IMG/VR virus record: IMGVR_UViG_3300036832_001295
Coordinates: 21,709 to 85,708 of that record
Reading direction: 5' to 3' (one strand)
Origin: a virus
Length of the DNA: 64,000 nt
Shown here: positions 13,742 through 16,587 of the stretch, one piece after another
Layout: the number at the start of each line of letters is the position of its first letter
Position numbering within the stretch: position 1 is the first letter of the stretch
The notes under the pieces: generated by a model
Databases searched by the model: none
What the model was told of the DNA's origin: nothing
Seen by the model: the letters and a program-made list of their open reading frames with translations, nothing else
Made by a program: the position numbers and the translations under genes

Positions 13742-16587
13742 GGCAGGCAGGGCTTGGCGGGGCATGGTTCGGCGCGGCATGGCACGGTGTGGCAGCCAGG
13801 GCACGGCGCGGCACGGCACGGCCTGGCTCGGCGCGGCAGGCGCGGCGCGGCGCGGCGGGGTCGGGCCCGGCCTGGTGCGGCGAGACATGGCGCGGCGAGG
13901 CAGGCATGGTGTGGCTCGGCCTGGCTCGGCAAGGCAGGGCAGGCACGGCATGGTTGGGCTCGGCGCGGTTGGGCGTCGCAGGGCTTGGCAGGCAGGGCGA
14001 GGTGTGGCGGGTCCAGGCATGGCGCGGCAGGCATGGCCCGGCGCGGCTCGGTACGGCAAGGTGGGGCGTGGCAGGCGGGGTTGGGTTCGGTTTGGCATGG
14101 CGCGGTTGGGCACGGCACGGCTCGGCAGGCGTGGCTTGGCGTGTCGAGGCGGGGCTGGGTTCGCTGGGCCAGGCGGGGCAGGGCAGGCGTGGCTGGGCGG
14201 GTTCCGGCAAGGCAAGGCATGGCCAGGCAGGCACGGCCCGGTTCGGTATGGCACGTCGTGGCCAGACTTGGCTTGGCAGGCGTGGCTTGGTGTGGCACGG
14301 CCGGGTCAGGCACGGTTGGGCGCGGCAGGCTCGGCGAGGCGTGTCATGGCAAGGCTCGGCTAGGTAGGGCACGGCAGCCGAGGCCTGGTGAGGCAGGGCA
14401 ACGCGAGGCATGGCTAGGCCCGGCAGTCGGGGCGTGGCATGACCCGGTGTGGCAGGTCACGGCAAGGCGTGGCGCGGCAGGCACGGCTAGGTCGGGCGCG
14501 GATCGGCGTGGCATGGCGTGGCAGCTAAGGCGCGGCGGGGCACGGCACGGCTGGCTAGGCAAGGCTCGGCCCGGTGCGGCATGGCAGGTCAGGGCAGGCG
14601 TGGCAGGGTGCGGCAGGGTCAGGCGCGGCAGGGCTAGGCGGGGCTTGGCAGGCAAACGTGGTTTAGCTGGGCCCGGCGTGCCGGGGCACGGTGGGGCGTG
14701 GCAGGCAGAGCAAGGCTCGGCTTGGTTCGGCGTGGCATGGCAGGCAGGGCTAGGCAAGGTATGACAAGGCTGGGTGCGGCATGGCGTGGCTGGCATTCGT
14801 GGTTTGGCTGGGCGGGCCGCGGCGGGGCAGGCAAGGCATGGCTTGGCATCGCATGGTGTGGCTCGGCTAGGCGCGGCAGGGCAGGCAGGCGAGGCCGGGC
14901 AGGCAGGGCTGGATTCGGCCGGGCATGGCTTGGCGCGGTTTGGCAGGCAAGGCAGGCATGGTGAGGCACGGCAGGGCACGGCGCGGCTAGGCGCGGCAGG
15001 CGAGGCAGGGCCCGGCTAGTCCAGGTGCGGCGGGTCGCGGCCGGGTTCGGCAGGGCAGGCTCGGTTGGGCTGGGCGGGGCGTGGTTTGGCAAGGCAGGGT
15101 TGGGCACGGCAGGCAGGCAGGGCGTGGTTGGGCTCGGGCGGCTGGGCACGGCAGGGCAGGCACGGCGGGTCCGGGCGAGGCTCGGCAAGGTCCGGCCTGG
15201 CGGGGTAGGGCCTGGCAGGCGAGGCGGGGTGTGGCGGGGCCTGGCGGGTCAAGGCACGTCATGGCGCGGCAGGCATGGCGAGGCAGGGCTTGGTCCGGCA
15301 GGGCACGTCCCGGCTTGGCTTGGCAGGCTCGGCCAGGCGCGGTTGGGCGAGGCATGGCAAGGCAGGGCTCGGCCAGGCAGGCATGGCCCGGCGAGACCCG
15401 GCTCGGCTCGGTGCGGCATGGCGCGGCATGGCAGGCAGGGCGCGGCGCGGCCAGGCGAGGCCGGGCTTGGCTCGGTCCGGCCTGGCGAGGCGAGGCAGGC
15501 ATGGCCCGGTATGGCACGGTGCGGCACGTCCCGGCGTGGTATGGCAGCCGAGGCCCGGCTTAGCGTGGCAGGTCTTGGCGAGGCCTGGTGTGGCACGGCA
15601 AGGCAGGGCGTGGCAGGCATCGCGTGGTGTGGCACGGCCCGGTGGGGCACGGCTTGGCAGGCATCGCACGGCGCGGCATGGCAGGTCGAGGCAAAGCCTG
15701 GCGGGCACGGCAGGCATGGCCCGGTCCGGTTCGGCACCGCACGGCGGGGCATGGCAGGCATGGTTCGGCTTGGCGTGGTGTGGTGGGGCACGGCAGGGCA
15801 CGGCAGGCAGGGCTCGGCGTGGTTCGGCACGGCACGGTGTGGCGTGGCTTGGCGGGCAGGGCTCGGCCGGGTTGGGTACGGCGTGGTCAGGCGAGGCGCG
15901 GCGCGGTGTGGCAGGCAGGGCTCGGTACGGCGGGGCATGGCAGGGTGTGGCTAGGCCCGGCGGGCATGGCATGGCGCGGCAAGTCCAGGCGAGGCGCGGC
16001 GAGGCGTGGCGAGGCGAGGCGAGGCAGGCAAGGCAAGGTCGGGCAGGGCACGGTATGGCCCGGTGTGGTTGGCATGGCGCGGCATGGCAGGCAGGGCGCG
16101 GCAGGCTGGGCTCGGCACGGCTAGGCGCGGCTCGGCAAGGCGTGGTGGGGCAGCCGGGGCTGGGCGAGTTGGGCATGGCCGGGCGCGGCGTGGCAGTCCA
16201 GGCAGGGCAGGACGAGGCAGGGCTAGGCGCGGCTTGGCAGGGCAGGCTTGGCCCGGCGGGGCATGGTTGGGCTAGTCAAGGTCGGGCATGGCAGGCAGGG
16301 CAGGGCTTGGCCCGGCAACGCAGGGCTTGGCCCGGCGCGGCAGGCACGGCAGGGTTAGGCGGGGCGGGGTCCGGCTAGGCCTGGCAGGCAAGGCGGGGCA
16401 GGTCCCGGCTTGGTTGGGCACGGCTCGGCGCGGCAGGCGTGGCAGAGTTCGGCGAGGCTAGGCGTGGCAAGGCCCGGCTAGGCAGCCACGGCGGGGCCTG
16501 GCCAGGCATGGCAAGGTGAGGTGCGGCGCGGCATGGCAGGCGTGGCTTGGCGTGGCACCGTGTGGCCACGCGTGGCACGGCACGGCA
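13742..16587 (+). repeat. GGY-NN pentamer array, block 2 (~56 units plus a few truncated ones, putative guide RNAs)
   Basis: Same grammar as block 1 over 2.85 kb; units of ~7-13 pentamers; no unit seen twice. Confidence 0.9.

What the first reader, a model, noticed from the sequence alone, without database searches (positions are those of the whole stretch)
13742..16587. The NN dinucleotides decode as codon positions 1-2 with the wobble base skipped
Concatenating a unit's NN, reverse-complementing and reading each pair as NNx gives protein-like strings, e.g. AERVVAVL, KLTQAEQIV, EVVQAIKEHP, KKWTVIDGV, VLYDFITSE, NPYLAWLALT, KAKIREHL, LDRAPAWYGLS. Two-way ambiguities such as D/E and K/N were resolved by eye. 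Frequent NN (AC, AG, GC, AT, TC, GT) are the complements of V, L, A, I/M, D/E and T codon starts. Inference: guides pair 2 nt and skip 1, so they are blind to synonymous escape mutations and in effect target protein sequence.
Basis: partly seen in the sequence, partly recalled or inferred. Interest (0 to 1): 0.95.

Follow-up and report, generated by a model that had tools for sequence, protein, structure and literature searches.

The report
Large phage VIPR guide-RNA array

Summary
Window 12851-13250 and 13742-16590 are 585 NN-GGY pentamers in 73 units, separated by 4-nt AGGC steps.

A vipr homologue (11295-11942) matches SUSP1 Vipr (E=7e-7) and folds as a Cas7-like RAMP. A conserved vap gene follows it.

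Direct support from this array is thin:
- Unit 43 matches real genes only at a gap of 1: 6 hits against 0, 0 and 0 at gaps 0, 2 and 3. It has 19/20 matches in a tape-measure gene and an SNF2 gene.
- Unit 45 hits a TIR gene at 18/20.
- Related phages' guides show an excess at gap 1.
- No exact target was found for any unit.
- Units 16 and 44, and 4 of 5 seed scans, were at chance.
- Half of unit 46's excess is compositional.

What is unusual is the size, about 3.5 times the largest array among 80 relatives.

This scan has noted VIPR arrays before in at least 8 other genomes. Verdict: a new member of a known kind.

The parts
11295..11942 (+). vipr gene (215 aa), a Cas7-like RAMP protein. A ribosome-binding site (TAGGAGG) lies upstream.
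   Evidence: phmmer against PDB sequences finds 'SUSP1 Vipr protein' 36pp_D at E=7e-7, with GVGEWRP aligned to GVGDWRP. It matches phrog_4652 at E=5.8e-40. The AlphaFold2 model has pLDDT 84.5. The best Foldseek PDB hits are Csm3/Cas7 subunits, for example 6xn3_F at E=3.8e-6, probability 1.00. The start was chosen.
11939..12307 (+). Small ORF (122 aa), a partial duplicate of the accessory gene's N-terminus.
   Evidence: blastp against the next gene gives 51% identity over 45 residues, E=6e-14. It has weak tblastn matches in only 2 of 109 related loci. It has no Pfam or PHROG family.
12304..12759 (+). vap-like accessory gene (151 aa).
   Evidence: It matches phrog_15946 at E=2.9e-22. A homologue lies directly downstream of vipr in 90 of 109 related loci. 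Which of the published vap1-6 classes it belongs to could not be checked, because the supplements are closed.
12786..12854 (+). Strong hairpin between the vap stop codon and the first array unit. It could be a terminator, a processing site or a leader structure.
   Evidence: The RNA fold is -42.2 kcal/mol, z=-4.64, and 0 of 200 shuffles fold as well.
12851..13250 (+). Upstream part of the vrRNA array: 71 pentamers, units 0-8.
   Evidence: Parse; sequence.
13292..13738 (+). Inserted ORF (148 aa, hydrophobic N-terminus) that splits the array. It is probably a passenger gene and not part of VIPR.
   Evidence: ORF. No Pfam hit reaches threshold, there is no PHROG match, and there is no homologue in 109 related loci.
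13742..16590 (+). Main vrRNA array: 514 NN-GGY pentamers in units 9-72, separated by 4-nt AGGC-type steps (staggered architecture).
   Evidence: No Rfam family matches. The same delimiter grammar occurs in relatives: AGGC 229 times and AGGT 47 times.

Best explanation
The stretch is the guide-RNA (vrRNA) array of a phage VIPR system. The array is transcribed from the + strand, together with or after vipr and vap. That strand assignment is inferred from the GGY strand and from the fact that all related arrays lie on the vipr strand. The transcript is then cut at or near the 4-nt AGGC steps into about 55-70 guides of 8-13 pentamers each; this step is inferred. Vipr protomers polymerise along each guide. 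Each protomer hides a GGY triplet and presents the next NN. The NN pairs base-pair with one strand of double-stranded DNA while every third target base is flipped out. This mechanism has been shown by others for the type II system of phage SUSP1, and I transfer it here by homology.

Targets are mostly coding DNA, and the flipped base falls on codon position 3. A guide therefore in effect reads the first two letters of 8-13 consecutive codons and tolerates synonymous changes. Binding silences transcription of genes of rival mobile elements. About three quarters of the units read as the antisense of a coding strand and one quarter as the sense.
For: Protein parts:
- The Vipr homologue has a sequence match to SUSP1 Vipr and a RAMP fold.
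- A conserved vap gene follows vipr in 90 of 109 related loci.

Array grammar:
- 534 of 585 pentamers carry GGY, the NN are hypervariable, and unit length peaks at 9.
- 51 of 80 related viral loci have arrays of 60 nt or more that yielded guides, all on the vipr strand and with AGGC/AGGT steps.
- The paper's fig. S18 legend describes staggered arrays with 1-nt overlaps.

Gap test:
- Unit 43 gives 6 hits at gap 1 against 0 for the backward control. At gaps 0, 2 and 3 it gives 0/0, 0/1 and 0/0.
- Of relatives' guides, 7 of 234 have a match with at most 1 mismatch at gap 1. The figures at gaps 0, 2 and 3 are 2, 2 and 3. Three shuffle sets together give 4, 3, 3 and 5 at gaps 1, 0, 2 and 3.
- Two 10-NN guides match at 19/20 inside open frames of 459 and 199 aa. 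The first lies at a DPPY methyltransferase-like motif.

Codon phase:
- All 6 unit-43 hits lie in SNF2-type open frames at D-(D/E)-V-G-L-G-K-T-I-E. Their third bases vary. Pfam was run on 2 of the 6.
- The 8-NN seed of unit 43 gives 34 viral hits, and 26 of the 34 lie in in-phase open frames of 150 aa or more.
- For unit 46, 16 of 18 hits have the skip base on the highest-GC phase.
- The single hit of unit 45 (18/20) is the first strand of a TIR domain, WDVFMSHASE.

Against: - No exact target was found for any unit. Full 10-NN patterns of units 43 and 16 gave 0 hits in viral contigs. Unit 45 gave 0 in genome contigs.
- Unit 43 at up to 1 mismatch gave 0 hits in 301 family genomes (the control gave 1) and 0 in 92 genus genomes.
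- The two units that I chose without a recognisable motif showed no excess: unit 16 gave 3 hits against 3 for the control in 151 genomes, and unit 44 gave 0 against 0 in 101 genomes.
- Four of five 8-NN seed scans looked like chance. Unit 45 gave 9 hits, none in a frame longer than 87 aa. Units 38 and 28 gave 15 and 18 hits, none credibly in phase. Unit 47 gave 6 hits, one of them 10/12 NN in phase. Its 10-NN seed gave 2 chance-like hits in metagenomes.
- Unit 46 gave 18 hits against 1 for the backward control. That shrinks to 18 against 8 for an NN-order shuffle, so much of the excess is codon-composition, and the hits lie in unrelated families.
- The window's 54 longer guides show no excess over shuffles against 1.25 Mb of related phage DNA.
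- NN composition fits codons no better than a flat distribution.
- No RNA data exist for this phage.
- The code has been shown experimentally only for type II systems, which have a 3' tail that this array lacks.
Confidence: 0.9

Rival explanations
1. The decoding is a by-eye artefact. The NN are effectively random, or shaped only by composition, and do not derive from or aim at coding sequences. The 'peptides' arise because any dinucleotide string decodes to something once two-way ambiguities are chosen freely.
For: NN composition is no better explained by codon positions 1-2 than by a flat distribution. An NN-order shuffle of unit 46 still gives 8 genomic hits against 18 for the real order. 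Units 16 and 44 and four of five seed scans are at chance. The same decoded string fits two unrelated protein families.
Against: Unit 43 hits SNF2 genes 6 times in 5 genomes, against 0 for the control and 0 at the other gaps, and its seed gives 34 viral hits, 26 of them in phase. The unit 45 hit lies exactly at a TIR first strand. Strand coherence within units has P=0.0014-0.037. Relatives' guides show an excess at gap 1, including two 19/20 in-frame matches. The code is experimentally established for homologous systems.
Confidence: 0.05
2. It is a VIPR-type array, but this clade (staggered, tail-less units) reads targets by another rule, or serves mainly as decoy or sponge RNA for rival Vipr proteins rather than as guides of its own.
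For: The architecture differs from the characterised type II systems: there is no invariant 3' tail and the units abut through a 4-nt step. The October 2026 preprint's abstract reports vrRNAs used to redirect a rival's VIPR. Most units have no identified target.
Against: Only gap 1 gives an excess, both for unit 43 and for the relatives' guides. The array sits next to its own vipr and vap on the same strand, as in 51 of 80 relatives.
Confidence: 0.04
3. The repeat is a protein-coding low-complexity region or a functionless pentanucleotide satellite.
For: Open frames of up to 367 aa run through the array on both strands. TRF reports many overlapping periods.
Against: A 4-nt step every 35-65 nt shifts the frame by one, so no frame is kept across units. 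Open frames on both strands are expected at 73-76% G+C. A satellite would not keep GGY fixed while NN vary almost evenly over 16 types. It would also not be conserved in grammar beside vipr in dozens of unrelated phages.
Confidence: 0.01

Closest known systems
VIPR systems with staggered vrRNA arrays (bioRxiv 10.64898/2026.04.26.720920; main text and fig. S18 legend)
   Same: Both have a Vipr RAMP gene plus a small accessory gene. Both have guides made of GGY/NN pentamers and units that abut with a one-base-short junction. Both are phage-encoded and use a 1-nt skip with the skip base at the wobble position.
   Different: I could read only the legend, not the figure or the data tables, so I cannot say whether this clade (Gordonia/Mycobacterium-type phages) is the one shown or which of the seven types it is. 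This array is far larger: 2,714 nt by one regex measure, against at most 785 nt in 80 relatives. It is also split by an inserted gene.
Type II VIPR of Escherichia phage SUSP1 and a Pseudomonas fulva prophage
   Same: The Vipr protein is homologous (E=7e-7 over the C-terminal G-loop region). Guides are of similar length (9-16 repeats in the paper; 8-13 here). The recognition code is the same.
   Different: Type II vrRNAs are about 100 nt with an invariant structured 3' tail, and there are a few per locus. Here there is no tail, units are separated by 4 nt, and there are about 55-70 units.
Class 1 CRISPR backbone (Cas7/Csm3 filaments on crRNA)
   Same: The RAMP fold is shared: the best Foldseek hits are Csm3/Cas7. 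In both, a protein filament on the guide periodically interrupts guide-target pairing.
   Different: There is no repeat-spacer array. The guide information is interleaved within the repeat (2 of every 5 nt). The target skips 1 nt in 3, rather than one flipped pair in 6. I did not search for cas1/cas2.

Membership tests
VIPR system | A Vipr protein: a small (about 20 kDa) single-RRM RAMP with a glycine-rich loop, encoded next to the repeat RNA | tested here: met
   The 215-aa ORF at 11295-11942 matches SUSP1 Vipr 36pp_D at E=7e-7, with GVGEWRP aligned to GVGDWRP. G183, G187, G189, E190, W191, R192 and P193 are invariant in 32 homologues. The AF2 model has pLDDT 84.5 and its best fold hits are Csm3/Cas7.
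VIPR system | vrRNA built of tandem YNNGG (GGY/NN) pentamers, typically 9-16 per guide, with GGY conserved and NN hypervariable | tested here: met
   There are 585 pentamers, 534 of them with GGC or GGT. All 16 NN types are used, at 2.2-10.1% each. 54 of 73 units have 8-13 pentamers, with the mode at 9.
VIPR system | A vipr-accessory (vap) gene in the locus | tested here: inconclusive
   A conserved 151-aa gene follows vipr here and in 90 of 109 related loci. Its class (vap1-6) and any DNA-binding function could not be checked, because it has no Pfam family and the supplements are closed.
VIPR system | Targets are matched by the NN with exactly one unpaired target base between pairs (the 1-nt skip rule) | tested here: met
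   Unit 43 gives 6 hits at gap 1 and 0 at gaps 0, 2 and 3 in the same 5 genomes. Relatives' guides give 7 at gap 1 and 2, 2 and 3 at the other gaps, with shuffles at about 1-1.7 per set. Limit: this is shown for one unit of this window and for the clade, not for the array as a whole.
VIPR system | The skipped base mostly coincides with codon position 3 of coding targets, on either strand | tested here: met
   For unit 43, all 6 hits lie in frame in SNF2 ORFs, and 26 of 34 seed hits lie in in-phase frames of 150 aa or more. For unit 46, 16 of 18 hits are in phase. Relatives' two 19/20 hits are in frame. Against this, the seed hits of units 28, 38 and 45 are not in phase and look like chance.
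VIPR system | The array is transcribed and processed, the RNA co-purifies with Vipr, and the complex binds dsDNA and represses transcription | not testable with these tools
   The only public run holding this DNA is its probable source, a soil metagenome DNA run.
Type II VIPR (SUSP1-like) | Each vrRNA ends in an invariant structured 3' tail (a pseudoknot in the SUSP1 clade) | tested here: not met
   Units abut through a 4-nt step, with no invariant sequence between them. Rfam finds nothing. The locus is therefore not filed under type II.
VIPR, staggered-array architecture | Adjacent vrRNAs share a 1-nt overlap, so that the end of one marks the start of the next | tested here: inconclusive
   The junction is a pentamer one base short (N-GGC, mostly AGGC), found 78 times in the window and as AGGC/AGGT 276 times in relatives. 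This fits the legend's wording. Processing sites are unknown and I did not see the figure.
CRISPR array | Direct repeats of about 23-40 nt alternating with unique spacers of similar length | tested here: not met
   TRF and the parse find only the 5-nt period and its multiples.

The most novel reading that the evidence does not exclude
With about 55-70 guides, this phage uses the wobble-skipping code to write guides against short, strongly conserved protein motifs. Examples are P-loop/motif I-like VGLGKT strings shared by SNF2 helicases and tape-measure proteins, a TIR first strand, and, in a relative, a DPPY methyltransferase motif. One guide could then silence whole families of genes across many rival phages. 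It might also silence host defence genes, which would make VIPR a broad counter-defence arsenal rather than a set of element-specific guides.
Probability: 0.15. Interest if true: 0.7.

Novelty: new member of a known kind. Interest (0 to 1): 0.35.

Why it matters
The code itself is already in print, so the finding does not open a new question. Its value is as an independent, sequence-only recovery of the VIPR rule in a distant, high-GC soil phage. That phage's relatives include cultured Gordonia and Mycobacterium phages, which gives a tractable actinobacterial system for testing the staggered, tail-less array type that has not been characterised experimentally.

The array's size, about 70 units, would make it one of the largest guide repertoires of this kind. 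If targets can be found, it could show what a phage 'chooses' to silence.

Tried and rejected
My first reading was that the decoding was probably a composition artefact and that the array might be an RNA-binding-protein array (TRAP-like, from memory). I dropped this once the neighbouring gene matched SUSP1 Vipr and I had read the VIPR preprints.

Self-targeting: the best match of any unit in the phage's own 85.7 kb is 87.5% of NN letters, and all four gaps give alike values. I rejected it.

Window guides against 1.25 Mb around relatives' vipr genes showed no excess over shuffles, so there is no sign that this array targets relatives' VIPR loci. No guide is shared with relatives.

Target hunting for exact or near-exact sites failed for every unit:
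- Exact scans found nothing.
- Seeds of units 47, 45, 38 and 28 gave chance-like hits.
- The unit 47 hit in L086 is suggestive only. It matches 10/12 NN, in phase in a 928-aa ORF that has no Pfam family. I estimate about a 1% chance after the fact.

The 'GHKL G1 box' reading of unit 46: the hits include histidine kinases, but also ResB, RecD-like and cyclophilin genes, and a shuffle gives 8 hits against 18. I do not accept a specific family assignment.

The 'SNF2' reading of unit 46's neighbour, unit 43: a tape-measure gene is equally close at 19/20. I left the target open.

Expression: no RNA holder is listed, and I did not use read laying. The promoter and terminator scan found nothing useful.

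I did not use complex prediction, the protein-atlas search, the search for homologous proteins or the search of protein representatives.

Supplementary files of the papers are closed. Data S3 and S4 and figs S16-S18 of the first preprint may already list this clade and its type.
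Full report
WHAT IS THERE. On the + strand, window 13742-16590 is an unbroken series of five-base words, two variable letters followed by GGC or GGT. A shorter stretch of the same kind lies at 12851-13250. Every 35-65 bases one word is a letter short, mostly AGGC, which shifts the register by one. A dynamic-programming parse gives 585 pentamers and 78 four-base steps, which define 73 units. 534 of the 585 pentamers carry GGC or GGT. 54 of the 73 units have 8-13 pentamers, with the mode at 9. 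Tandem Repeats Finder sees only the period 5 and its multiples. The two array parts are separated by a 148-codon ORF (13292-13738).

THE OBSERVATION. Reverse-complement decoding of units 10, 13, 16, 20, 22, 28, 35 and 38 gives his eight strings, once each two-way ambiguity is resolved as he resolved it.

Three tests need no database:
- The variable positions are 45% and 55% G+C, in a phage whose third codon positions are 88% G+C. Any phase that puts a wobble base inside NN therefore fits far worse: -3.12 to -3.47 nats per NN, against -2.76 for antisense and -2.85 for sense positions 1-2.
- That best value is no better than a flat distribution (-2.77, my arithmetic). Arg (CG) and Gly codon starts are under-used, and Ile/Met, Leu, Val and Thr starts are over-used. 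The overall composition is therefore not evidence for protein-likeness.
- Sense-type and antisense-type dinucleotides cluster within units more than permutation allows: P=0.0014, 0.019 without unit 58, and 0.037 without units 58 and 11. 41 of 57 units lean antisense.

WHAT IT IS. Another first-stage note on this stretch used the word 'VIPR-like'. A literature search then found three 2026 preprints. I read the Results, the Discussion and three Methods sections of bioRxiv 10.64898/2026.04.26.720920. I read passages of 10.64898/2026.04.26.720927. Of 10.64898/2026.10.15.759431 I read only the outline and abstract.

- a small RAMP protein (Vipr);
- an accessory gene (vap);
- vrRNAs of 9-16 YNNGG repeats whose NN pair with double-stranded DNA under a '1 nt skip rule';
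- the skipped base mostly at the codon wobble position, which the authors say defeats synonymous escape.

The papers also mention 'staggered arrays' in which neighbouring vrRNAs overlap by one base (fig. S18 legend).

The window has the protein parts:
- The ORF at 11295-11942 (215 aa) matches the PDB sequence 'SUSP1 Vipr protein' (36pp_D, E=7e-7) across the glycine-loop region. It belongs to phrog_4652 (E=6e-40).
- With 31 homologues it folds with pLDDT 84.5. The best matches of that model among solved structures are Csm3/Cas7 subunits. The Foldseek library ends on 8 April 2026 and returned no Vipr entry.
- The 151-codon gene at 12304-12759 has a homologue directly after vipr in 90 of 109 related loci. 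The 122-codon gene before it is a partial duplicate.
- A strong hairpin (-42.2 kcal/mol, z=-4.6) separates vap from the first unit.

RELATIVES.
- 178 IMG/VR stretches encode a relative, and 80 were kept.
- Arrays lie on the vipr strand just downstream.
- 51 loci yielded 198 guides with the same AGGC/AGGT steps.
- 34 cultured-phage records carry the gene: 27 Mycobacterium, 5 Gordonia, 1 Pseudomonas and 1 cyanophage.
- The closest cellular hit is an uncultured Gordonia MAG at 60% identity.
- Gordonia phage Ecliptus has the gene followed by a roughly 230-nt array of the same grammar.
- The record itself is a linear IMG/VR contig, 62% complete by CheckV, from a soil metagenome.
- By one regex measure the window holds 2,714 nt of array, against at most 785 nt in any of the 80 relatives.

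TESTING THE CODE ON REAL DNA, CLADE LEVEL. I took 234 distinct guides of related loci and scanned them against 2.3 Mb of fetched DNA with the arrays masked. At gap 1, 7 guides have a site with at most one mismatch. The figures at gaps 0, 2 and 3 are 2, 2 and 3. Three NN-order shuffle sets together give 4, 3, 3 and 5 at gaps 1, 0, 2 and 3. A smaller first run gave 6 at gap 1 against 1, 1 and 0. Two 10-NN guides match at 19/20 inside open frames of 459 and 199 aa. The first lies at a ...DPPYN... motif, with the skip base on the high-GC phase.

TESTING THE CODE ON REAL DNA, THIS WINDOW. Results for:
- Unit 43 reads forward as D-G-V-G-L-G-K-T-I-A. At up to 2 mismatches in five Mycobacteriaceae-family genomes it gives 6 hits at gap 1 against 0 for the backward control. 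At gap 0 it gives 0/0, at gap 2 0/1, and at gap 3 0/0.
- All six hits read D-(D/E)-V-G-L-G-K-T-I-E in long frames with varying third bases. Pfam calls the two I submitted SNF2 helicases.
- Its 8-NN seed has 34 exact hits in viral contigs, against 6-18 for four other seeds. 26 of the 34 are in in-phase frames of 150 aa or more.
- Two of these extend to 19/20. One is a tape-measure protein and one an SNF2-related protein.
- The only hit of unit 45 in five genomes (18/20) is the first strand of a DUF1883-TIR protein.
- Unit 46 gives 18 hits against 1 for the backward control in 151 genomes, and 16 of the 18 are in phase.

Results against:
- An NN-order shuffle of unit 46 gives 8 hits, and the 18 real hits lie in unrelated families. 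Most of that signal is therefore codon composition.
- Unit 16 gives 3 hits against 3 for the control, and unit 44 gives 0 against 0.
- Full-length exact patterns of units 43, 16 and 45 give 0 hits.
- Unit 43 at up to 1 mismatch gives 0 hits in 301 genomes and 0 in 92 genomes.
- Seeds of units 45, 38 and 28 give only chance-like, out-of-phase hits.
- Unit 47 gives one suggestive 10/12 in-phase hit and nothing better in metagenomes.
- The window's guides show no excess against relatives' loci or against the phage itself.

HOW IT MOST LIKELY WORKS.
- Shown here: the parts list, the grammar, the preference for gap 1, and the codon phase for a few guides and for the clade.
- Taken from the preprints, for type II systems: Vipr filaments hold GGY and present NN; the target strand pairs with one base in three flipped out; binding represses transcription.
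- Inferred: + strand transcription; cutting at the AGGC steps into about 55-70 guides; targets in rival phages or other mobile elements of an actinobacterial, probably Gordonia-like, host.

COMPARISON AND NOVELTY. The locus meets the tested defining features of VIPR. It does not meet the type II feature of a conserved 3' tail, and it fits the 'staggered array' description as far as the legend goes. The principle in the finding is already published. The locus is an undescribed member with an exceptionally large array.

The decoded strings are short, and the best-supported one fits a phage tail gene as well as a helicase.

This scan has already followed up VIPR arrays in at least 8 other genomes, with the same conclusion. 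I did not test those notes.

Noticed in passing
window 13292-13738 (+): A 148-codon ORF with a hydrophobic, signal-peptide-like N-terminus and an Asn/Thr/Gly-rich body sits inside the guide array and splits it in two. It has no Pfam or PHROG family and no homologue in 109 related loci. It looks like a passenger gene inserted into the array.
   Followed up: partly
window 11939-12307 (+): An extra small gene lies between vipr and vap. Its first 45 residues are 51% identical to the start of vap, so it is a partial tandem duplication. Only 2 of 109 relatives show a weak match to it.
   Followed up: partly
window 12786-12854 (+): A very stable hairpin (-42.2 kcal/mol, z=-4.6) lies between the vap stop codon and the first array unit. 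It could be a terminator, a leader or a processing signal. I did not check whether relatives keep it.
   Followed up: partly
window 10134-11102 (-): The gene just upstream, on the other strand, resembles mycobacteriophage lysin A. It has 67-69% nucleotide identity over about 390 nt to many Mycobacterium phages, and a Glyco_hydro_19 match at E=1.7e-5. This supports a host among the mycolic-acid actinobacteria.
   Followed up: partly
L049:11230 guide -> L032:13388: A 10-NN guide of a related phage matches at 19/20, in frame, the ...TDPPYNVAYEG... stretch of a 459-aa open frame in another related phage. The stretch looks like DNA methyltransferase motif IV; the motif name is recalled and no family search was run.
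   Followed up: partly
L012:11671 guide -> G000 C1:75643 (window 53935): An 8-NN guide of a related phage matches this phage at 15/16. The site lies in frames of only about 60 aa with no clear codon phase, so it is probably chance.
   Followed up: partly
window 12851-16590: 19 of 73 units have only 1-7 pentamers. The commonest non-GGY triplet is GTC (21 of 585). These may be decayed units, parse artefacts or a tolerated variant of the conserved triplet.
   Followed up: no
window units 15 and 53; units 21 and 72: Two pairs of units share 5 of 8-9 dinucleotides in register. They could be guides against two alleles of the same motif.
   Followed up: no
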